64,000 nucleotides of DNA from Lobosporangium transversale (Eukaryota): NCBI RefSeq assembly GCF_002105155.1, contig NW_019028982.1:620001-684000 (forward strand), given 5' to 3'. The notes under the pieces are model-generated. The model was not told the DNA's origin. It did not search any database and saw only the letters and a program-made list of their open reading frames with translations. The position numbers and the translations under genes are program-made. Below are positions 42,354 to 57,284 of this stretch, piece after piece (the stretch's first letter is position 1; each line of letters opens with the position of its first letter).

Positions 42354-45070
42354 TTAGATCTGGACTTTACCAATCTCGAACACTTCATAGTCTTTAGGGT
42401 ATACGCCCTTAGTCAACTTCCTCTGAGAAGCAACAACAATTCTATAGACACCAGCAGGTAATTTGACAGGCACCGTTGAGGTCTTGGACTCCATAACCTG
42501 GCCTTCCCATATTCTCGGCGTAAAGACAAGATTACCTTGATCATCTACCATCTTATGCCTACCCAAGGGGCCGTAAGCTGTACCAGTCTTCGAGCTAAGG
42601 TACCCTCTGAAGACATTCTGGGAGTCATAGATACGGATCTCCCCTGAAGGCGTATGCGAGCCCAGACGAGTCAAGGCCACAGGCTTCATGGACGTGAGGT
42701 CAAAGAGATAGTCGCCTTTTTTCGAGACATCGGTCAGGTTACCAGTCGCGACATCCAAAGCACTCAAGGCCGGGAACCCAAGGCTAGTATCCATGATTGG
42801 GACCTGAGAAACATCTCCCTTGAGGCCGATATAAGGAATGCTGATAGGAATACCGTCCTTGGACGTAGGGGTCGCAGTGAGGTAACCAGAGTACAATGGG
42901 AATTGAGAGCTCTTCCCCGGCAGCAGGCTCGCGGAATCGAATAGTGACGGTTGCAGACCTGCCTGCTGGAATCCTGACCGACGTGGTCGAAAATGTGACG
43001 GATGCATAGTCAGCCTCAAGGACTGGCTGTAGCAGAGGGAATGTATTGTTTCCTGGGTACGAGTTGAGGGCATCAGCTGGTACATGCGATAAAGTGTAAG
43101 TCTCTGTACCCTTGCCATGGTTGCTAAGAGTAATCTGGACTGTTCTTTGGAGATGGTTTGTGTCCAGAAGGTCTATGTGATCCGGTGTAATGGAGGATGT
43201 GGCAGTAAGGGCATTAAATACATTGAGCAGACCAGCACCTTGCTTTGCAGCCGAAGTGTAAGTGTTTGTGATCGGATCCTTGAAGAAAGTAGCTGTGTTC
43301 TTGAAGACCTTGCGAACATCATCACCACGTGGTTTGGTTTTCTTTGCTTGAATGTAGAGAGCATGTGCGCCGGCGAAGTAAGGTGCAGCCATAGAGGTAC
43401 CAGACATGACTTTGTATCCCCCCAATTTGAGAGGGAAAGCCGATAAGATGTTCCCACCAGGAGCCGAAACATCGGGCTTGGATCGTAGATCACCATCCAC
43501 ACCAAGGGAAGAGAAGCTTGATGGTCGACCGCCGCCTCGACCCAGAAGCTGGCTGGTGTCTTACTCCAAGTGAGCCTGTGTTGAGAGTCTTGTTTGTAAG
43601 CGGCGATCAGCTCTGTGCCGGTCTTGTGTTCAATGGATGCCATAGGGAACTCCGGGATGCCACCGACGCCTCCCAAGCCAAAAGGGATGGTCTGAATTAG
43701 AATGCCAGCTGCACCAGCCTCTTTGGCGATCGTACCGCGGTCACCAGACTTGCAGCGGGCGAGATCTCCGAGGACGAGGACAACCTTCCCCTTGACATTT
43801 AAGCCTCCGTATGCGTCCGCGTTGCATCCGTCCGCAAGTGTACCGTTCTGATGGAGCACAGGGACTAAAGTGGCAGAAATAGGGAGGTTGATGGCCTTGC
43901 CATAGGCATCTGAAGGCACATAAGAGTATCTACCTCCAGCGTATGTGAAGTAAGCATAAGTACCAACAATGTTATCAAAGGAGCCCACAGAAGTAGAGAG
44001 ATCACCAAGGCTTGAGTCTGAGACCATCCAGACACCATGTTCTCCATCGTTACCAGCTGCTACAATAATGGCCATTCCTCTAGCAATCAGTTTATCGCCA
44101 AGCACAGCTGGTGGATTACTTTTGAAAGCCGATCCTCCGCCTAAGGACATGTTGATCAGCTATGATATGACAAAAAAAAAAAAAGGTTTGTTTGTATTTG
44201 TTTGTATTTGTTTGTATTTGTTTGTGTCACAAAAATGTATGCAACTTTTTTTTTCCAACCTACATCCATACCGTCGTGGTATGCGCGCTCCATTGCAGCC
44301 ATGATTAGATCATCTGTGGTACTACCTGTACACCCAAAGATACGATACGCGCCCAAAGTCGCCTCAGGTGCCACGCCTACAAATGGCTGTGGAGGCTTAA
44401 GGCTGGACTTGATGTTCAGAGCATCCGCTCCAATAATACCTGCAACATGTGTGCCATGGCCTTGGCAGTCCATAGGATTTGGCCCAGGCGTAGGCTCGTT
44501 GCCACCATTGTACTCATCCCCTACAAAATCCCATCCATACGCAATACGGCAGTTCTTCCCAAAGCACCCCTTGGTGGCACCACGGCCTGCGAAGGCTGGG
44601 TGGTTGTAATCGATGCCAGTATCGATCACCCCAATTTTGACGCCTCTACCTGTCAGCTTCAGCTTACGGTGGACAATATCAACGCCTGTCATAGAGTGGT
44701 AGGAGGCTGCTGCAGGGTCCGTAGCATTGATGGCAGAAGGGCGAGGCTTTGGAATTGAGTATAAGCGGATCGGCCAGACATTTTTGATAGTGGGAATGAC
44801 TGCTAAATCGTTGCCATCATGGGCTGAGAGGACAGAAATGGCTACACCATTGAAGATACCATACTCATTCCTGACCTCATAGGAAACTTGATGATCATCT
44901 AAGGATGAGTAGGCGTTAGAGTGCATGACTCCATCCTCATACTCAATGATGAAGCCGCGAGCAACGGTTGTGTCTAATGGTGATGACATAGGATCAAAGT
45001 CGTGATATGTCCCAGCAGAGACGAGAGCCACAGCTGTGAGCATCGAGACAATAGTGTTGAGGGTCTTCAT
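42354..45070 (-). CDS. Secreted subtilisin S8 protease (Vpr/C5a-like, PA and Fn3-like domains); one intron ~44159-44261; two frameshifts (~43535, ~42917)
   Basis: Signal peptide; catalytic VIDTG, HGTHVAG, AAGN and SGTSMA. The domain chain is spread over three frames after the intron, switching at G-rich sites. Confidence 0.88.
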
Positions 45071-47261
45071 TTCTCCAGGCTAAGTAATATCTGGATTGAT
45101 GATTGAGTGGCGAAATGTGTGCACTAAAAAATAACGGCCTCTCTAATTGAGGTCTTCTCTAATGATAAAGGTAAAGGGTAAAGTGATGATAAAGGAGTCG
45201 ATAGCGGTAATTGAATAGATGACGAAGTTAGGACAAGAATATGAAGATCAGAAACAAGTCGATCGGAGTAGAAGGAAATGATAAGTTGAATGAAAATATG
45301 AGAGAGAAACAAGGTCCTTTTTATATCTGATCTGTGGGTGCGTGCGCAAGTGGCTGTGTAACAAGCCAGAACTCCGAATCTAAAAAAAAAATGCATTCGA
45401 AAGACGAGGCGCAAATCATGCTGCATCCAACGGACTACCGAAAATCAGAATTCTAAACGTTAAACATTACATTTTCGAGGCCAGGTACATCAACTTATGG
45501 CACTCCATTTGTTCTGAGTACTGATTTCATTTGTTGGGCGTGTTTCATTTCATTAGACACACTACAGGGCTTGGTATTCCCAAGGAAGAAATGATTAGGG
45601 CAATAAGCAGCCTATAATTAATGATGACCGAAATGAACAACATCCTGTCATTTATAAGGTCTTTACCATTGACAGTGTGGGTTTTTTTTGTTGTTGCCAT
45701 GAAACCGTATTTGAATTGGTAGGCTAATAAAGCTCAAATGCAGCTACGTACATCCCAAGCCTCATATAAGCATAGTAAGTTTTTGATGTTTTGGATGTAC
45801 CAGTTACTGTGAGCTTGATAAGTACCATTGTTCCCTTCATGAAGCCCACTGCAATGCTTTTCCCTCAGCCTTTTATCTTACAATGAGAACTACCTTTGAA
45901 CAGAGCCTCTATTTAATTTCTGCCATTGAAACTCTTGTTGCTGTTATCTCATACCTGCTTTAGAATTCTTATATGGTTCACCGCTAGGTATTTACTTCCC
46001 TGCCTTCGTCCCGTCTAAATTAACTAAAAGATACCTTTCTCCTTAGTTTATCGCTCATTTTGTCTTCTACTGATGAAAATACTGCAGAGCTTGGAAGATG
46101 ATCCTGTCTATACTGAACCTGATGCTTTACTATACCTTTATTCGCTTTAAGAGACGCGATGCAGTCCTGCCTTTCATGAGCGAAAAACATAGGAGTTCTT
46201 TTTATTTATTATCTATCTCTATTTTCCGTGGTGCTGGAGAAAGTAAGCGCTAAAGGAGCCGACTTTCTCGATAACTGTGTATTAATTAAGATGCTTGAGA
46301 CAGCATCAATGGCATTCGAGTTCAGAACCTATTCCAAGTAAGGCAGGCTTTGGCCATGATATCTACAAACTGGTTTCTGGAAAGTGAGCTAACCAATTAG
46401 ATATTAGCTCGATTGCAGCGTGTGCAACGAACGCTGTAAGCACGTTTTTAACATCTTAAGCACGACAACACTTCTTCTAGCGCAGCGGATTAGAACTCTT
46501 TTTTTTAGCTAGGAACACATTGGGCTGGGGACTTTAGTTGGAGAGATCTGATTTGGCGCAAGGTTCAGATCTTTCTGTACAAATGTGCGTGCAAATGTCC
46601 ACAGATGGTCCACAGGACAATATGTCTATGAAATTTATATACATTGTCACTGAGAGACATTCCAGCACAGAAGTAAGATCTCCAAAAGGTGGCAGTGCGA
46701 ACTTTAAATTGGCTGAGTATGTTTTCACCAAAAGTGCGAGACGAGTGGCTGCAAAGCTTTGTTTGGAGACAAGAATAGGAATTGAGTTTTGAATGTTAAT
46801 TACAAATAAAAACTTGTGATAGATGCATTATACTGAATAAACAAAACATGCGAACTCCAGGGCACTCCATTTTAAATGTCTTGGTGAAGATAATGGCCGC
46901 AGAGTCCATGCCTGGCCTCTTCACTGCCACAACCCATCAGAAAGGCTCTCTTTTTTGCTGAATCTTTGATGACAGAGTCAACGCACTTTTCTACCAACGC
47001 TTATTGTTTTGATTTCCGCTGTTTTGGGATTAAGGTACCAAATAAGGAAGCCAATGACGATCGGCCACAGCACTGCCATCCGCACTCTTTCATATAAGCA
47101 CAGCTCGTATTCTACCCTCTTTGATTTTCGCCATCAGTATTCTACAAGAGCTGCTCAGCTACTCACCACTTCTCCTCTTACCTTTATTTATTACGAAAAC
47201 ATTCTTTATATGCCCCTATTCCTATTAAATCTCCATTCTGAAAAAGTCTAAACGCATAATC

Positions 47262-47691
47262 ATGGTTGTACTATCACTCCGTAATCTGATCCTGTCAGTA
47301 TCCCTGGCTACGTTCGCTACTCTGACACCATTTTCTAATGCTGCACCTACGCCTCCAGTACCTCAAGTGGATGCCTGTGGGGTGCTTGGTTTTATGAACA
47401 GCTCATCAATCACTTACGACGATGTCTCTGCTTGCTATAAAGCCATTCCATATGATCCAGTGGTGGCAAGTGCGACCTTGAAGACACTTCATGCCTTCTT
47501 CAATGATAACTATGTCTTCTGTGATTCAGCATTGACCCCAGATCTGAAGGTACCCTTCTCCTGCCCCCCTGTGGACATTGTCAAGGAGTTTGAGCGGATT
47601 GGGCAGACAAAGTACACTGGTGACTACAGCTTTCACTTAGATGTCTCTAGGGCTATTAATGGACTCTATGATACCCACGCTAGTTATAACA
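47262..47691 (+). pseudogene. Orphan first exon of a secreted fungal peptidase S41 (CPAF-like) family gene; truncated
   Basis: Signal peptide plus DACG...ITYDDVSACYKAIPY...VDIVKEFERI...YTGDYSFHLDVSRAINGLYDTHASY, resembling the fungal S41 N-terminus. Donor GTAAG at 47692; no downstream catalytic exons before the next gene. Confidence 0.6.
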
Positions 47692-47927
47692 GTAAGCTCT
47701 AAAAAAAAAAAAAAAAAAAAAAAAAAGATAACATTTGTAAATTGCTAATTTCCTCCTTCATGGTATAAACGTAATATACAGCTTCAGCTCTGATCGGGAC
47801 GCGTAAATGTGGGGAAACTACGGGAGCAGATGAAAAAAAATATTCAAGCTGTTCTTTCTATCCTTTGATCCGAGCGGTAATCCATCTGTTTAGCTCTTCT
47901 TTTGGGTATTGAGTTCGACATGGTCAT

Positions 47928-48502: not shown

Positions 48503-49359
48503 CTATTGATGCCCATCATCCATCTTCCCATCAGGGAAACGATCACTAACAACGCCTAAATGCAAGATACGACATCCACTCTGGCAGACTGGGTCCACAG
48601 ACTTGCCCACAACAATACCGTCCTCAGGCGCATAATACCGATGCTCCTCCTCGCCAAAGATGTTATACAACGTCGCGATCAACTCACCCTTGCGCACCCA
48701 TGTGTTCACGTCCGGCAACACATTTAGAATTCCACCATCCTTGGTGAAGATCCAATACTAGTAGGAGCAATAGTATTGAGCAATGATAGACCGTAAGTTA
48801 TCACAAATAAAATAAAAAAAAGATTTGTTTTTTTTTTTTTTCTTTTTCTTTTTGGTGCTTACACTTTTGGCGCAGACAACGGGGTCATAATCCGGGGCTT
48901 CATGTTCGTCCTCAATCATCTTGAGATGGCCCAAGATATTGGTCACACCCAGGATCGCACTCTTTACAAATCGCTTCTGGAACCTTGCAGGGTCTCCGAT
49001 CTCGACTGTAATGGCCGGAATATTATATTCCTGCATCGCTGCTCCGCGCAATGATCCATCTGGTGATGTATTATGCACAATGATCTGAGGGTTCTGTAAC
49101 CGGGCCATGTGACGTGTTGTTGGGTTTTGCATATTTGCTCGAACATACAACGAGTTTACACGACCCTTGGATGCAGTGTGAAGGTCGATCAGGTGAGTGA
49201 AATGACGAATAACTCGAGTCATCAGATTGTACGAGTATACTTGCGATGTCGATCCATTCTTCTTGCTGTAACAGCCATAATGAGAGTAATAGTGTTATTG
49301 TTGTTGTTTTCCTCAAAGGCTCATATAACAGAGCAATCATCAACCAGATCATAACTGGC

Positions 49360-49410
<51 letters not shown>

Positions 49411-50909
49411 TTACCCTGGCATTACTCGATTGAGATCAATGCCATCACTAAACCCACGTTGACCAAGCAAGTATCCAGGAACATTTGCAACAGGCACAGC
49501 AACCACAATTCCGTGGAGAGCCTGGCATTGAATTTCATGAAGTACAAGTCGATGCGTCAAAGGAATTCCATTCAGCTCGTTGCCATGTAGAGCTGCGGTC
49601 TATTTGCGAAAATAATAAGAACATATATTGATAGATAAAATAGTATGGTTTTAATAAATGGTACAATTCCCAACCTTCTTGCCACCCTTGGCCTGATCAA
49701 TCAAAGTATCAAGAAAAAGAAAAAGAAAAAGAAAAAAAGACTGGTTATACACATATTATACATACCAGGCCCACAACAGGTCCAGGACGGACTCCTTTGG
49801 CAACAATGACAGGTATTTTGATAGGACTGCTCATTGCGTCTTGCGCAAGCATGATCCAAAGACGTGTCAAGCGGCCAGAAGGAAGACTATTTAAATCTAG
49901 ATCTTCCAGTACAGGATAATCTTTGGGATCAAGGTTTAATTGCATCGGTGACACTCGTTCAGCTACCACAGGCGCACGTTTTCTCCATAGCTAACCAGTC
50001 ACCAGTAAAGAAGAAAAAAGATGTTAGTAGATGTGCATATGAAGCTATTTGTCTTCATAAAAACAAAAACTGCTATGCAAGCAGTCATTCTTTTTGCGTC
50101 ATATGCTTACTGTTCTGGCTTCAGCCAACAAATGTTCGTCCTTCTCACTCTTTGCAAATGTCCTCTCTGTCACCATCTTCCAAAACTCAAGGCTCAAAGT
50201 CGAGACTCCATCAATGTAATTATAATAAAAGATACTCTTGGAGTTAGTTTGAGGTGAATTTACATTGCGAATAAAGTCCTGTGCATAGAGGCTGGATGCT
50301 GGCTCGGGATAGTTACGAGGTAAATAGATCGTGGGTGTGCTTCGACCATGGCCTTGAATACCAAGAGCATTGATCATGGTCAAAGATGAAGCAAGGTCAG
50401 AATCCGCTTGTGGTGTAGTAGGATAAGCAATCGCATTAGGTGAATCAGACTGATGTTTCCTTAACAAGCCACTGCCACCACCATTGACAGGGGTATGGAT
50501 GGCAGAAGAGTCTGGTGATGATGACAACGCTTGACCTGGCGCTGCTACGTTACAACTACGGTAATGTTTGTCAAACTTTTTGATGATCTTTTTGAAGCCA
50601 GTAATATTGGTCTGGCTGAACTCACGGAGGTATTCTAGGTTAAGAATTAGGACAGTAAGATCGCTGCGCCTAAAGTTTCCATTCCAAAAAAAAAAAAAAA
50701 AAAAAAAAAAAATTAAGTGTCAATGACGTTAATTGAATAATATGTTCGATATGTAACTGCTTTTTTTTCTGTTCGTTATGGTCACAACTATTATAACGCT
50801 TACCAATGCTTTAGCTCCGCTGGTGTAAAGTTGGATCGCCACTAATAAAAAATAAACATAAAACCAAAAAGAAAATCAGATAAGAGAGAACTTGGTAAAA
50901 GTGAAAGAG

Positions 50910-50940
<31 letters not shown>

Positions 50941-51426
50941 AAAAGAAAAAGATTCACATACGCTTGCATTCAATCGGTCCAGACTAACAGACGCAACACG
51001 TTCTTGGGCGTCATAGCGCGCATTGACTTTTTCTAGCTCCGCCCAGAGCAAGGCCTTGAATCCATCAACAATAGCATTCAAGCTTGCCTCTTGGGTCTTT
51101 GCATTCGCATTCTTCTCATTTCTGATGGTTTGATTCTGTATCTTTGCAAGATCAATTGTTCCTTTAGCTGCCAATGCTTCCTGGTTGGAGTGTTCTCCTT
51201 GATTTTTGGCCTCAGTTGCAGGGCTGGCATAACCCACTTCCAAAGCTGCGTCTGCATTAGAATCCGAGCCGTCAATGGCTGTTGTTGATCTAGGTTTTGA
51301 TTCAGTAGTGGCAGTAGAGTCATCCTGATCACTCTGACCCGGTTTTTCCTGATCTTCATGATCCACGCTCTCTAATGACTCTAATGGCCCTGATAAACAG
51401 AAGTAGATCCACAAACTTGATTAACT

Positions 51427-51457
<31 letters not shown>

Positions 51458-51615
51458 GTTTGTTTGCTTTGTAATCATTATTAATTTGATATGATTCCTT
51501 TACCAGCCAAATCCCTAAAAGATGTTTTGATGTATTGCTTCAAAGACTTGTAATCAATGTAATAAGGAGCCCAACTAGGAATACTCCTAAGACCAAGTTG
51601 TTTTGCAAACTTCAT
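48503..51615 (-). CDS. SPX domain fused to an AstE/AspA (succinylglutamate desuccinylase/aspartoacylase, M14-like) zinc deacylase; 8 exons, 734 aa
   Basis: Exons 51615-51504, 51389-50962, 50841-50804, 50669-50111, 49990-49766, 49599-49415, 49265-48863 and 48757-48503 total 2205 nt, all GT-AG and phase-consistent. SPX motifs: MKFAKQL, WAPYYIDYKSLKQYIK, NITGFKKIIKKFDK. Deacylase motifs: ALHGNELNG, DLNR, IDLHT, ITVEIG, plus a C-terminal barrel (YAPEDGIVVG). Confidence 0.88.
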
Positions 51616-51758
51616 TCTTGCTTATTTGCTTTTAAAAATAAAATAAATATCTAGCTATGATCTAAGCGTGTGGCTGTGACAGCTGCTAAAAAGTCGAGAA
51701 GTGAAATTGAATGTACAGAATGTACAGAATGTGCAGAATGCACAAGCAGTAATGACAG

Positions 51759-51794
<36 letters not shown>

Positions 51795-54320
51795 TGCCCT
51801 TCAACAACAACTCGGTGCAAGTAAGGGATGTAAAAAAAGTGTGAAAAGGAAAAAGAAAAAAAGGAAAGAAAAAGAAAGGAGAACAAGGAGAAGAAGAAAG
51901 GAGAGATAATAAAAAAGGGAATGACACGCCACTTCTGACACCTTTACTTTACTTCACTGACGCGAAAAAGAAAAAAGAAGAAAAAATAGTGGTTGCATAA
52001 ATCCCCCTCTCTTTGCATTGTCAGTATCCCCACTTCCCCTTTTTTTTTGTTGATCTGGACATTTGGAGGTTGATATGCTGCACAGGTACACATGCAGAAA
52101 CACATTACATTCATTGGCACACACAACCTTAAGACAAAAGAAGTCTTAATGATTATGAATCATCCTTCACTCCCTCTTTTCTTCCTCTCACTTGATCTTC
52201 TTCAACATCAACACCAACATCGGCATCAACAAAAAAGTTATCAGATAGCAAGTAGGATGTAGAGAATTAACCGATCCAATACAAATGATCTTTCTTTTTT
52301 AAACCCTTTATCAATTGAACTCGAAAGAAAGGTCTTTATATATGTATATTTGGTCATCACTAAAAAGAGGTCCCATTGCTGTTCACTTTTTAAAAGAAAG
52401 GAAGTCGAAAGAAGGGGGAAACTGGTTTTTTTTTTTATTTATTTTTCGCTGTGCCAATGTAAATGTACGGATGTGAAGCGTATTTGTTTCAAAAATAATA
52501 ATCATATCAGCGTGCTCAATGAAGAAACGTGTTCTGGATTCTGCATCCTGGCCCTAGAGAATTTTTTAGTGCACGTGATGGCTCTCTCTCTCTTTGGGGA
52601 TGTTATTTGACTTTTAATAAAAAGACTCGGTATCCATGTCCATATGCCTTATTATTAATACCTAGGCTTAAGTAGGAAGATTCGGCTGCTTATCATGACT
52701 CCTACGTAGTGTGTAGTGTATATGCGATCGGAATAAGCAAGACCGCAAACCTCAACATACAACTTGTATGGCAGCCAGTGAAAGAAGAAAAAAAAAAAGA
52801 ATGAAGGTTTAATCGAGCTTTATAGGTTGGTATACCATAATAGAGTGCAAATAGAAAAGTCCTCATGCCTTTTTTCTTTATTGTTATAATTACTACGGGT
52901 TGTATGTAGGATGTATAATACATGTAGGGCGGGAATGAAAAGCACCACGACCTCGAGAGAAAGGGCAACAATTGATAGTCCAGAGAGAGAAAGAAGGCGC
53001 CATCCAATCAAAGACACGATAGATTGATTAAAGACTAAAGTGACTGCATCTGATGGGCAAAGCAAAAAAAAGAAAAAAAAAAAAAAAAAAGTGTACAGAG
53101 CGATCGATATGCATGTGTACATATATTGTTCTCCACTTCAAATTCAGGTCGTAACTGCTTTAACATTGGTACATACACTTTTTATCTTTTAGAATGGATC
53201 GGCATGGGTCTAATGTTTCCATGAAGAGACATAGCCGTGTATATAAAATGGATCCGTACATATATGCCGGAATACTTTATTAAAAATATAGTAATACAGT
53301 GGAATCTTCGGAGTTGGGTTGAGCATTGTGGGGAGAAGAACACACGGACAAGGACAGGGGCAAGGGGTATAGGAACGCAACCCAGCAACTCAAAAAGAGG
53401 AAAGAATGAAAAAAAAAAAAAAAAAAAAAAAAGATTTACAATCGATTGAAGGATCGATGATAAAACATATATAAAAACAAAAAAAGAACGAAAAAGAATA
53501 CATACGTGGCTGTGAGAACAAAAGGGATTGACTTTAACAATGCATGAATATGATGATATGCAGCAACGTTGGAGGAAGTGTGTGTGTGCAAGGACCCTTT
53601 TTGATGAACTTTTTTTTTTTTTTTCTTTATCACATCTCGACTTTTTTTATGCAAATAAAACATTAAGGTATCATGCTGATCATTTCTGTATGAACTCATG
53701 TCTGTGTGCTTGCAAGTGCGGGGGAATTTCTATCACACTTTATTTTAGACAAGATTGTCACAAAAAGATAATTTCTGATCAGTCCAATCATGTGCCTATC
53801 CATCCTCGTGCTAGACCCATGTAAAAACCAATCTTCCAGTTAAAGATCCCATCGCATATCATATCTCTCCATCTCTTCCTGTAGAAAACACACATAGACA
53901 TTTTCCTCATATCCCAAACCACTGATGAGCACTTTGATTCATCGCTGACAGAATCCATATACACATTCACTAACACATTTCCAACATGCACCATACGCCA
54001 TAGAAAATAGATAGTAGATAATAGATAATAATAAAAAGAAATAACACTGTCCTTATTTTCTTTTTCTTTTTCCTTGTATAAATACCCTTCACTTTTCCTC
54101 TCTTTTTTTCCTTCCTACTTCACTTTTCTCTCTCTCTCTCTCCTTTCCTCGCCTGCTGTTCGTCAGTTTTTATCACCACCCTCATTTTTATCTAATACCA
54201 ACATTGCAATAACAAAGCGTTTTTGGACTTTTCCATTACCAAATAAAAACCTTCGCCTACCAACACCGTATCACATTTCATTACCCTACCTTACTTTTAT
54301 TTAAATAATATCCTTCCAAC

Positions 54321-54706
54321 ATGCCTCCACACGCCAACTCAATCCCCAACGTCTCCTCCAGCCCATATGCTCCCAAGTTCACAGACTCGCTCTCCCGTCT
54401 GACAAATTGGTCCATCATTGAATCTACATTGCGGGAGGGTGAACAATTCGCAAACGCCTTCTTTGACACCGCAAAGAAGATTGAGATTGCCAAGGCCTTG
54501 GATGATTTCGGTGTCGAATACATTGAACTCACCTCCCCTGCTGCCTCTGAACAATCCCGCCAGGACTGTATTGCCATCGCCAACTTGGGTCTCAAGGCCA
54601 AGATCTTGACCCATGTTCGCTGCCACATGGACGATGCTCGCATCGCCTGCGAGACTGGTGTAGATGGTCTTGATATCGTCATTGGTACTAGGTAAAGTTG
54701 CACTTG

Positions 54707-54738
<32 letters not shown>

Positions 54739-54774
54739 GATCCTCTCACTTATTTCTTAACTGACCTTTCTTTT

Positions 54775-54806
<32 letters not shown>

Positions 54807-56077
54807 TTTCGCCCTTGTAATAATAGCTCCTACCTCCGTGAGTTCAGCCACGGAAAGGATATGGAGCGCATCATCAAGGATGCGACCGAGGTCATCAACT
54901 TTGTAAAGTCTAAGGGTTTGGAAGTCCGTTTCTCATCCGAGGATTCTTTCCGCTCAGATTTGGTCGATCTCTTGAACCTTTACAAGGCTGTTGACCAGCT
55001 CGGCGTTAACCGTGTTGGTATTGCTGATACAGTCGGTTGCGCCAACCCTCGTCAGGTCTATGACCTTGTCAAGACCCTCCGTTCCGTCTTGAAGCCTACC
55101 ACTGACATTGAATGTCACTTCCATAATGGTAATAACCTTCAAACAAACGAACAAAAAAAAAAAAAAAAAAAAAAAAAAGCTCACAAAAAAAGATCTTCAT
55201 GCATATCCTGTATTTTTATGTCTTCCATGTCCCCCCAAATCCATGTATCCACATCCATATCTATATCCATCGCGATATGTAGTCTATATAAAAAAAGAGT
55301 CACATTTATATTATCGGACACGTACACCGAGATCGGCAAAAAATCCATCAGTGAGGAATCACACGTAATCCCACGACTACAACATCTTACTGTTTTAGAA
55401 CTTGACTGCTAACTTTAAATTATTTTCGATTTTTTAATAATTTAGACACTGGATGCGCCACTGCTAATGCATATGCTGCCTTGGAGGCTGGTGCTACACA
55501 CATCGATACCTCAGTTTTGGGAATCGGTGAACGCAATGGCATCACACCCATCGGAAATTTGATCGCCCGTATGTACACCGTTGATCCAGACTACGTTGCT
55601 TCCAAGTATAAGCTCACCCAGCTTCGTGATCTCGAAAACTTGATTGCAGATGCTGTCGAGATCCAAGTCCCCTTCAACAACTGCATCACCGGTTACTGTG
55701 CCTTCACCCACAAGGCCGGTATCCATGCCAAGGCCATCCTCAACAACCCTGCCACCTACGAGATCCTCAAGCCTGAAGTCTTTGGCATGACTCGTTATGT
55801 CTCCATCGGTCATCGTCTCACAGGTTGGAACGCTGTCAAGAACCGTGCCGAACAGCTTGGATTGGCCCTGTCTGATGATGAACTCAAGGCCATCACTGGC
55901 AAGATCAAGCAGTTGGCTGATATTAAGAACCAAAGCATGGAAGATGTCGATGGTCTTTTAAGAAATTTCCATGCCTACAAGGTTGCTGGTGATCACTCGG
56001 CCATTCAGAAGCTCTTGGTCGTTGAGCAGGCTGATGCTAGCCCTACCCCAGCACCTATTGAAGTAGCAGTCAACTAA
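54321..56077 (+). CDS. LYS21: Homocitrate synthase; introns ~54692-54826 and 55129-55445
   Basis: Motifs [40 protein letters not shown] and [11 protein letters not shown]. Confidence 0.97.
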
Positions 56078-56395
56078 ACATAAAATAACCACCTCACGCA
56101 TTTGTAAAAGCACTCACATATCAACCATACCTGCATATTCATCTTTCTCCTCTCTTTTCAACGCAAAAACCAAAACTGGAACCAAAACAAACCAAAAAGT
56201 TAAATAAAAATAAAAAAAAAAGAGTGATAGTATAATATCGCTCATTGTACAGTAAAAAAAAAAAAAAGTGCAATGGTCAAGATTGATAGCAACATAAATA
56301 CACGTATACAATTCCTTTCTTTGCTTATTATTTTTGATGTATATATATTTTTTCCATTCTACTGTTTTTTTTTAGTTCTTTTTTTCCTTTTTTTT

Positions 56396-57284
56396 TTACT
56401 TCTTCAAAACGGATTGTCCAATCCTGAAATCCAATCTGGAAAAGACCATTGATGTAGCAAAGATAACCATCAACATTGAGGCCGCAGCAAATGGTTTGAT
56501 GAGGTATGACGATGCAGAGTATTCATATTCCACCAACATCTCCAGTCGTCCATGTTCTTCAATCAGGTTGTGCGCATAGATCGTCACTGTATGTCGTCCA
56601 GCACTATCCATATATGTCTTTGTTGTCGAATTCTCAACCGCATCCACCTCATAAGGCAATTGCACGTTGACGTTTCTATGGAAGAAAAAAAAAAAAAAGA
56701 AAAAAAAAAGAAAGTTAATCGATCAATCAAAGGTCAGACAAAGTATTAAAAATAGATAATACCAATAATAATAGTAATGATAATAAATTAATAAAAAGTA
56801 TGAATAAAGCTTACTTGGCTCCTTCTGGAAGAATGATGCGGATATCAATATCGGTATAGCTGGTTTGAGCCAATGGCACCACAGCAGGGAACTTGAGGAT
56901 ATACTTGTCAGTTCCTGGAACACGACGAAGATATTCATTCAAGGGAGCATTATAGCCCATGTACCAAGTCGTATTCCAGCCTCCAAAGATCGGGAACCGA
57001 GGTTTGAATGTGAGCAAAATATTATCAGGTTGATGTAAGATGGCCGAGGTTGAAATGTTGCCAATCTCATCACGATAATAAATATCGCGTGCCAACTTGG
57101 GGATCTCGGCTCTGAATGCTGTAATCATGTTGCCTTCACGAAGTGTCACCGGGTTACGCATATAATCCAATCTGTTAAACTGACCCTCCAACCTAGGAAA
57201 GAAAAAAAAAAAAAAAAAAAAAAAGACATATGTATTAATATATATTAAGAAAATGATATTGCGATGATTATGTCAATTTCTGAT

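What the first reader, a model, noticed from the sequence alone, without database searches (positions are those of the whole stretch)
48503..51615. SPX phosphate-sensor domain fused to a zinc deacylase (AstE/AspA family): candidate InsP-gated enzyme
Seen in sequence: eight GT-AG exons join with matching phases into one 734-aa ORF that the ORF track shows only as pieces. The N-terminus has the SPX hallmarks MKFAKQL, the phosphate-binding cluster YIDYKSLK and the lysine cluster GFKKIIKKFDK. The C-terminus is a complete AstE/AspA deacylase with HGNE and DLHT zinc ligands, DLNR and the catalytic Glu in TVEIG. Established: SPX domains bind inositol pyrophosphates and are classically fused to EXS, MFS, RING, VTC, CitMHS/Pho87 or ankyrin/GDPD partners; I do not know an amidohydrolase among the canonical partners. 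Inference: this is a phosphate-status-controlled deacylase or peptidase acting on an N-acyl amino acid or a glutamyl/aspartyl conjugate. The catalytic half looks bacterial-like (DLHTASKGRVNSLYVRA), so it may have been acquired horizontally and then placed under SPX control.
Basis: partly seen in the sequence, partly recalled or inferred. Interest (0 to 1): 0.88.

Follow-up and report, generated by a model that had tools for sequence, protein, structure and literature searches.

The report
Phosphate-sensing amidase with orphan ligase partner
This fungal gene joins a phosphate-status sensor domain to a predicted zinc amide-cutting enzyme in one spliced transcript, and because its closest bacterial relatives sit beside an unstudied ATP-driven ligase that many of the same fungi also carry, it likely lets phosphate supply control the breakdown of a still unknown small amide compound.

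Summary
Confirmed. Eight GT-AG exons give 734 aa. One spliced 2,381-nt contig bridges the SPX-deacylase junction. All six inositol-pyrophosphate-binding positions and the zinc and catalytic residues are intact.

The fusion is ancient: 45 named genera, mostly early-diverging fungi, plus Pneumocystis, Fonticula and protists. A C-terminal DGH tail occurs in 108 of 122 eukaryote-type rows and 0 of 89 bacterial.

The closest bacterial enzymes lie beside ATP-grasp ligases in 71 of 80 loci. One ligase has no Pfam family and a circularly permuted, GshA-like fold. It is also conserved in at least 25 of those 45 genera. Best reading (0.45, inferred): an inositol-pyrophosphate-gated hydrolase for that ligase's unknown amide product.

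Against: 40 of 64 ligase-bearing genera show no fusion, and an AU test leaves separate origins open. Binding, activity and substrate are untested. No paper found. This scan noted the fusion (e1-9752783, e1-7322260) and the bacterial operon before, on other DNA.

The parts
51504..51615 (-). Exon 1: start of the SPX domain, with phosphate-binding-cluster residues Y22 and K26
   Evidence: (SPX 34.1 bits, over cut-off); residue definition from PMC9911596 passages
50962..51389 (-). Exon 2: long low-complexity insertion in SPX, then the long SPX helix
   Evidence: (SPX 19.1 bits, under cut-off)
50804..50841 (-). Exon 3: 38-nt micro-exon within SPX
   Evidence: 41-letter interval in the spliced contig
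50111..50669 (-). Exon 4: SPX lysine cluster K220, K223, K224, K227, then a second low-complexity insertion and the last SPX helices
   Evidence: (SPX 28.2 bits)
49766..49990 (-). Exon 5: linker and first strands of the deacylase; the intron 49991-50110 before it is spliced out in the contig
49415..49599 (-). Exon 6: zinc ligands H459 and E462; likely carboxylate-binding R502, N511, R512
   Evidence: roles by analogy with CphZ (PMC9974463 passages)
48863..49265 (-). Exon 7: zinc ligand H545, subfamily motif with R551 and N553, H580, R589, catalytic E604
48503..48757 (-). Exon 8: small beta domain and the eukaryote-specific C-terminal DGH tail (731-733), then stop
51616..51754 (-). 5' untranslated region covered by the same contig (at least 139 nt)
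   Evidence: table 8

Best explanation
This is one spliced gene for an SPX domain fused to a predicted zinc amidohydrolase of the AstE/AspA family, which likely binds inositol pyrophosphates and is likely switched by them to break down a small amide that an orphan ATP-grasp ligase, found in many of the same fungi, is predicted to make. Shown: the gene, the transcript, the residues, the wide spread, the bacterial ligase-ligase-deacylase gene order, and the ligase's presence in many of the same fungi. Inferred steps, each with its own odds: (1) active zinc hydrolase using H459/E462/H545 and E604, 0.9; (2) SPX binds InsP6-InsP8, 0.85; (3) binding changes enzyme activity, 0.7; (4) the substrate is the product of the circularly permuted GshA-like ligase, an acyl or isopeptide amide with a free terminal carboxylate, 0.55; (5) the residue released is acidic (Glu or Asp), 0.6; (6) the enzyme is on when phosphate is ample and off in starvation, so that the amide accumulates and no ATP-burning make-and-break cycle runs, 0.55. 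The conserved DGH tail would be the part that links SPX to the active site or to an oligomer contact (0.4, a guess from co-occurrence).
For: One transcript. SPX positions among 122 eukaryote-type rows, counting only rows with a residue there: Y22 91 of 97, K26 97 of 98, K220 105 of 112, K223 103 of 112, K224 110 of 111, K227 101 of 111. These match the Vtc4 clusters Y22/K26/K133 and K129/K132/K136 in spacing (PMC9911596). H545, E604, R502, N511, R512, R551, H580 and R589 are invariant in 122 of 122 rows; H459 and E462 in 121 of 121 with one gap. The AlphaFold model of the compact orthologue P0040 (pLDDT 84.8) matches EutE/DoeB (6twm, E 3.8e-24), CphZ (8ein, E 1.3e-18) and, separately, the XPR1 SPX domain (8tyu, TM 0.84 of the target). 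Of 80 bacterial loci, 60 carry a ~480-aa ligase, 56 a GshB-like ATP-grasp, 45 both and 71 either. The ~480-aa ligase lies in loci titled Bacteroidota, Bdellovibrionota, Myxococcota and Pseudomonadota; in L037 most of it is fused in frame to the deacylase. Its model (pLDDT 87.4) is an ATP-grasp fold, best matched by 3k1t, a putative gamma-glutamylcysteine synthetase (Z 17.6, rmsd 4.1, 329 aligned), with eukaryotic glutathione synthetase next in Foldseek. The top hit of its profile among 1.84 billion representatives is a Podila protein. It occurs in at least 25 of the 45 genera that have the fusion, including Lobosporangium. The fungal ligase and the fungal deacylase are equally far from their operon counterparts: mean identity 50.7% (59 rows) and 50.6% (75 rows). 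R589 aligns with an aspartate in DoeB, whose substrate is basic (read from the HMMER alignment), which points to an acidic side chain.
Against: No binding, activity or substrate was measured. 40 of the 64 named genera in the ligase list, among them all listed Mucorales, Rozella and Batrachochytrium, show no fusion, so the two genes are not obligate partners. For 20 of the 45 fusion genera (Pneumocystis, Saitoella, most Kickxellomycotina, all five named protists) I saw no ligase; that list was cut at 120 of 3,605 hits, so this is unknown, not absent. The 80 bacterial loci are the best 80 of 591 from a truncated scan and are dominated by Saprospiraceae, so they are far from independent. The L037 fusion is from one assembled metagenome genome and lacks about 100 C-terminal ligase positions. 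63 of 89 bacterial enzymes have His where the eukaryotes have R512, so specificity may have shifted. No eukaryotic counterpart of the second, GshB-like ligase was sought beyond the fusions themselves. The model has pTM 0.63 and a low-confidence linker, so no SPX-enzyme contact is predicted. Some Kickxellomycotina rows have lost lysine-cluster residues (K223 to E in 9 rows).
Confidence: 0.45

Rival explanations
1. The enzyme is gated by inositol pyrophosphates, but its eukaryotic substrate is unrelated to the orphan ligase: a common N-acyl amino acid, a gamma-glutamyl or isoaspartyl dipeptide from turnover, or an acidic protein tail.
For: Ligase and fusion overlap only partly. They are not neighbours in this window: ligase queries gave no tblastn hit there at E 0.01. 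R512 differs from most bacterial operon enzymes.
Against: The subfamily motifs are shared with the operon enzymes and not with the RimK-linked paralogues: A547/S548, Y556, H580/N581, D585/G586, K702, R713. Both genes are retained at the same distance from bacteria.
Confidence: 0.3
2. SPX does not gate catalysis. It docks the enzyme on another SPX protein or compartment (for example the VTC complex by SPX-SPX contact) or sets its turnover, or the signal runs from the amide ligand towards phosphate handling.
For: SPX-SPX contacts broken by inositol pyrophosphates control VTC (PMC10167327 abstract and section 10). The model shows a flexible linker, residues 173-183 of P0040 under pLDDT 50.
Against: Catalytic residues are invariant. 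The DGH tail appears only with SPX, which suggests coupling within the protein.
Confidence: 0.17
3. It is an ectoine-pathway deacetylase (DoeB/EutE), a succinylglutamate desuccinylase or an aspartoacylase, as some database names imply.
For: Best solved relatives are EutE/DoeB. P0081 and P0134 carry such names.
Against: NCBIfam scores are far under the cut-offs: DoeB 62-65 bits against 402.7, AstE about 20 against 170-306, aspartoacylase 17-25 against 180. Identity to EutE is 21-22%. The recurring neighbours that I identified were ATP-grasp ligases and polyamine genes.
Confidence: 0.06
4. Two adjacent genes merged by gene prediction.
For: A few database rows hold only the catalytic half, for example P0015 and P0069.
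Against: One contig bridges the junction. 90 of the 120 rows listed carry both Pfam families, across fungi and protists.
Confidence: 0.01

Closest known systems
SPX-enzyme fusions Vtc4 (SPX-TTM polyphosphate polymerase) and Gde1 (SPX glycerophosphodiesterase)
   Same: N-terminal SPX with the same phosphate-binding and lysine clusters, followed by a catalytic unit.
   Different: Those enzymes make or release phosphate compounds. This partner is an amide hydrolase with no known phosphate substrate. It is not among the plant, yeast and human SPX classes named in the PMC8644344 passage.
EutE/DoeB N-acetyl-diaminobutyrate deacetylase (PDB 6twm, 6twl)
   Same: Closest solved fold: catalytic domain plus small beta domain, H-E-H zinc site.
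   Different: 21-22% identity; NCBIfam 62-65 bits against 402.7; acidic residues where this family has His-Asn and Arg; no SPX.
CphZ cyanophycin dipeptide hydrolase (PDB 8ein, 8eip; PMC9974463)
   Same: Same family and chemistry. It breaks down the product of a neighbouring amino-acid ligase and uses Arg/Asn-Arg for the terminal carboxylate. Best model for how this enzyme would work.
   Different: 14-15% identity, below the paper's 30% membership threshold. Its substrate ends in Arg or Lys; here the pocket looks basic.
RimK-linked AstE/AspA-type deacylases
   Same: Nearest paralogues in the same bacterial genomes, also beside ATP-grasp genes; they share R589.
   Different: Separate clade on a long branch (SH-aLRT 100) with different motifs at 547-556 and 580-586.
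GshA (ATP-grasp type, PDB 3k1t) plus GshB glutathione synthesis pair
   Same: The two operon ligases resemble these folds, which suggests two-step peptide building.
   Different: 11% identity to 3k1t; the GshB-like ligase is under the NCBIfam cut-offs (118-153 bits against 272); the product is unknown.

Membership tests
SPX domain (PF03105) | Profile score over the curated cut-off at the N-terminus | tested here: met
   Exon 1 34.1 and exon 4 28.2 bits against 27.8; orthologue P0040 62.5 bits
SPX domain (PF03105) | Phosphate-binding cluster (Tyr, Lys, Lys) and lysine surface cluster (three Lys) | tested here: met
   Y22, K26, K224 and K220, K223, K227, spacing as in Vtc4
SPX domain (PF03105) | Helical SPX fold | tested here: met
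   Model of orthologue P0040, not of the window protein, matches 8tyu and 5ijj at TM 0.82-0.84 of the target
SPX domain (PF03105) | Binds inositol (pyro)phosphates and regulates the attached domain | not testable with these tools
   Needs binding and activity assays
AstE/AspA zinc amidohydrolases (PF24827, M14-like) | Profile over cut-off; H-x-x-E...H zinc triad; catalytic Glu; carboxylate-binding Arg/Asn-Arg | tested here: met
   roles from CphZ passages
AstE/AspA zinc amidohydrolases (PF24827, M14-like) | Zinc-dependent amide hydrolysis | not testable with these tools
   No assay possible
DoeB/EutE (TIGR02994) | Equivalog score over 402.7 bits | tested here: not met
   62.1 (P0002) and 64.8 (P0040) bits
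AstE or aspartoacylase (TIGR03242, NF003706, NF002601) | Score over curated cut-offs (305.65, 170, 180) | tested here: not met
   17-25 bits for P0002 and P0040
CphZ | Over 30% identity to CphZ at over 70% coverage (threshold in PMC9974463) | tested here: not met
   14-15% identity in the structural alignment of P0040
CphZ | Acidic pair D222/E223 for the Arg side chain | tested here: inconclusive
   No residue-level alignment to CphZ was obtained; it was not among the sequence hits
Bacterial ligase-ligase-deacylase operon subfamily (uncharacterised) | Shared subfamily motifs and grouping apart from RimK-linked paralogues | tested here: met
   about 51% identity
Bacterial ligase-ligase-deacylase operon subfamily (uncharacterised) | Partner ligase in the same genome | tested here: inconclusive
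   A ligase is on record for Lobosporangium transversale (P0322), but no whole genome is held for this window; 25 of 45 genera confirmed

The most novel reading that the evidence does not exclude
Early-diverging fungi and scattered protists run an undescribed make-and-break pathway for an unknown glutathione-like amide, shared with a bacterial operon. In eukaryotes its breakdown step was put under direct inositol-pyrophosphate control by fusing SPX and adding a DGH tail as the switch. That would be a direct enzymatic link from phosphate status to amino-acid or nitrogen metabolism, lost in most Dikarya.
Probability: 0.35. Interest if true: 0.88.

Novelty: new variant of a known kind. Interest (0 to 1): 0.72.

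Why it matters
The SPX proteins named in the papers I read move, store or release phosphate, or control proteins that do. An SPX-gated amide hydrolase would extend inositol-pyrophosphate signalling to amino-acid-derived metabolism. It occurs in mycorrhizal fungi, Mortierellaceae and Pneumocystis. The link to an orphan ligase makes the substrate findable: two knockouts and one metabolomics run, or a three-gene bacterial operon in a laboratory strain, would name a new metabolite. They would also give a function to a ligase family with 3,605 hits and no Pfam model.

Tried and rejected
No whole genome is held for this window, so the ligase could not be located in it and synteny was not tested. No run on record as RNA was listed; X1 is RNA by guess, supported.

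Trees. The first tree (92 rows, quick fallback) used two near-identical outgroup rows, which fell inside the protist fusions on a zero-length branch; I took that as a long-branch artefact. The second tree (57 rows, five outgroup rows) made the 28 fusions one clade (SH-aLRT 99). My first AU test (p 0.14) was ill-posed, because its constraint is compatible with a single origin. The second (fungi with close bacteria, p 0.21) did not reject a separate origin. Both trees used subsets of the rows held, thinned by hand. The ligase tree was FastTree only, with long branches.

Other checks. Ligase profiles found no ligase domain inside any of 135 deacylase-family proteins. The E-box-like pattern CACGTK (recalled as the Pho4 site) occurs 33 times against 31.6 expected; sites at 52526 and 52572 are chance level. 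A promoter scan of L031 was at chance. The ESM Atlas gave only bacterial or archaeal deacylase clusters under 0.9 for P0040 and unnamed clusters for the ligase. A complex prediction of fusion plus ligase was not available, so binding is open.

Paper searches: SPX domain + aspartoacylase, 0; SPX + succinylglutamate desuccinylase, 0; SPX domain + deacylase, 1, about GPI inositol deacylase; SPX architectures in fungi, 0; SPX + M14 + Pneumocystis, 0. 'Circularly permuted ATP-grasp' gave 3 listings, none on this family by title or abstract start. One search showed nothing on this architecture in its 20 listed of 330; one search did not list the EutE structure paper. PMC10167327 classified SPX architectures from UniRef100, but its text and three supplements hold no aspartoacylase, desuccinylase, M14 or peptidase term; the full class list was not found there. 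Subscription papers and bioRxiv supplements were not searchable.
Full report
Observation. The gene is as described. Eight minus-strand exons with seven GT-AG introns give 734 residues and every named motif. Pfam finds SPX in exons 1, 2 and 4 and AstE_AspA_cat in exons 6 and 7; all but exon 2 pass the cut-offs. One 2,381-nt contig of run X1 follows the exons without a mismatch and skips the 120-nt intron between the SPX and deacylase halves. X1 is RNA only by guess, but it also shows the neighbouring homocitrate-synthase-like gene spliced and leaves the intergenic DNA almost uncovered. A partial NCBI model named Lobosporangium transversale is identical apart from a 29-column gap.

Spread. A search with exon 7 gave 636 hits; 90 of the 120 listed carry both Pfam families. 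A profile search added more. Named carriers are 45 genera: 10 Mortierellaceae, 2 other Mucoromycota, 4 Glomeromycota, 3 Basidiobolus/Entomophthorales, 9 Kickxellomycotina, 10 chytrids, Saitoella and Pneumocystis, plus Fonticula, Plasmodiophora, Spongospora, Balamuthia and Hondaea (grouping of genera from my own knowledge). Some of these records are partial or score under the SPX cut-off. No Mucorales, budding yeast, filamentous ascomycete or basidiomycete is named in either list of 120. Compact orthologues have about 515 residues; the extra length here is two low-complexity insertions.

Anatomy. The Vtc4 ligand clusters are Y22/K26/K133 and K129/K132/K136 (PMC9911596, passages). They map by spacing to Y22/K26/K224 and K220/K223/K227 here, each kept in 90-99% of the rows with a residue at that place. 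The zinc triad H459/E462/H545, E604, R502, N511, R512, R551, H580 and R589 are invariant in the 122 eukaryote-type rows, with one gap. In CphZ the matching kinds of residue bind zinc, activate water and hold the terminal carboxylate (PMC9974463, passages). A model of the Basidiobolus orthologue matches EutE/DoeB and CphZ in its C-terminal part and XPR1 and Gde1 SPX in its N-terminal part; the linker is of low confidence. This holds in 108 of 122 eukaryote-type rows, 0 of 89 close bacterial rows and 0 of 8 paralogues; several of the 14 misses are truncated records.

Origin. With five RimK-linked paralogues as outgroup, 28 fusions form one clade (SH-aLRT 99) next to or within the close bacterial enzymes. 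The 11 fungal rows form a clade (99), joined by Fonticula and two unnamed rows (88) (quick tree, hand-thinned rows). An earlier tree with two outgroup rows rooted inside the protists, and an AU test did not reject fungi grouping with bacteria (p 0.21). One origin is therefore favoured by the shared SPX and DGH tail but not proven, and the direction of any transfer is not shown. It is not a recent gain of this lineage.

The partner. I fetched the best 80 of 591 confirmed bacterial loci from a truncated scan and clustered their ORFs. A ~480-aa protein is in 60 of 80 loci, a GshB-like ATP-grasp in 56, both in 45 and either in 71, mostly back to back with the deacylase. In L037 most of the large protein is fused in frame to the deacylase. 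The large protein has no Pfam family and no solved sequence relative. NCBIfam matches its N-terminal part to the end of ATP-grasp profiles and its middle to their middle, which indicates circular permutation. Its model matches 3k1t at Z 17.6 and eukaryotic glutathione and glutathionylspermidine synthetases. Its profile's best hit among 1.84 billion representatives is from Podila, with others from Cyanidium, Reticulomyxa, Naegleria, Trichinella, Trichuris and a rotifer. Outside Mortierellaceae the listed fungal copies are 67-77% identical to the Podila protein and group with the operon ligases and some protist rows (support 91, FastTree). At least 25 of the 45 fusion genera have it, and both fungal proteins are about 51% identical to their operon counterparts. 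Against a strict pair: 40 of 64 named ligase genera show no fusion, and 20 fusion genera could not be checked because the list stops at 120 of 3,605.

Mechanism. Shown: one protein with an intact sensor surface and an intact zinc site, whose nearest bacterial relatives travel with amide-forming ligases. Inferred: the ligase spends ATP to make a small amide, probably an acyl or gamma-glutamyl-type bond to an amino acid, and this enzyme cleaves it next to a free carboxylate, as CphZ does for cyanophycin dipeptides. R589 stands where DoeB has an aspartate, so the released residue is more likely acidic. Inositol pyrophosphates rise with phosphate and activate VTC (PMC10167327, abstract and section 10). 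By analogy I commit to activation when phosphate is ample, which would let the amide build up in starvation and avoid a futile ATP cycle; the direction is only 0.55. Overall confidence 0.45. Rivals: gated enzyme with another substrate (0.3), SPX as docking or turnover device (0.17), a DoeB, AstE or aspartoacylase activity (0.06; NCBIfam far under cut-off), two genes (0.01).

What is known. The SPX classes named in the PMC8644344 passage are single-domain SPX, EXS, RING, MFS, Pho81, Pho87/90/91, Gde1, Vtc2-5, Syg1 and XPR1; no amidohydrolase. Searches pairing SPX with this family found nothing relevant. Of PMC13712823 I saw passages only. Of PMC10167327 I saw the abstract, sections 10 and 22, term searches of three supplements and part 2 of 2 of one. 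Databases already label some records 'SPX domain-containing protein', so the architecture is annotated but, as far as I found, unstudied. This scan noted the fusion twice and the bacterial operon several times on other DNA. I read those notes after reaching the link between the two; the excerpts shown did not connect them, but I saw only excerpts.

Verdict. Real, spliced, ancient and apparently uncharacterised: a new variant of the SPX-enzyme kind, with a concrete candidate pathway that makes the substrate findable. Interest 0.72; 0.88 if the gated make-and-break pathway is true (probability 0.35).

Noticed in passing
P0136, P0322; L052:1562-3001: An orphan ~480-aa circularly permuted ATP-grasp ligase with no Pfam family; 3,605 hits, highly conserved across early-diverging fungi and present in a red alga, Naegleria, Reticulomyxa, nematodes and a rotifer.
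   Followed up: yes
L037:2708-4957: In-frame 750-aa fusion of most of the orphan ligase with the deacylase in one Comamonadaceae metagenome genome.
   Followed up: partly
L003, L009, L014, L027, L028, L044, L045, L052, L064, L079: An ornithine/arginine-decarboxylase-family gene lies near the operon in 10 of 80 loci, an arginase-family gene in 9 and a deoxyhypusine-synthase-family gene in 5, in varying orientation: a weak hint of a polyamine link.
   Followed up: no
L004, L011, L017, L023, L070, L075: A SET-domain gene lies near the operon in 6 of 80 loci.
   Followed up: no
L054, L061, L076, L080: One Lewinellaceae lineage has a RimK gene plus a paralogous deacylase directly upstream of the GshB-like ligase and the close deacylase.
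   Followed up: partly
window 54150-56200 (+): Divergently oriented homocitrate-synthase-like gene (HMGL-like, HCS_D2), spliced in run X1; link to the fusion not tested.
   Followed up: partly
window 43173-45079 (-): Subtilase gene (Peptidase_S8, PA domain) whose reading frame changes near 44156-44159 between two long ORFs; possibly frameshifted.
   Followed up: no
window 47229-47702 (+): ORF with a signal-peptide-like start and no Pfam hit in this first exon, converging on the fusion gene.
   Followed up: no
window 56348-57200 (-): A spliced transcript of high contig depth (about 498) next to the homocitrate-synthase-like gene; not identified.
   Followed up: no
P0073, P0076, P0083, P0085, P0086, P0088, P0089, P0091, P0093: Several Coemansia and Kickxella orthologues have Glu in place of a lysine-cluster residue, so ligand sensing may be weakened there.
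   Followed up: no
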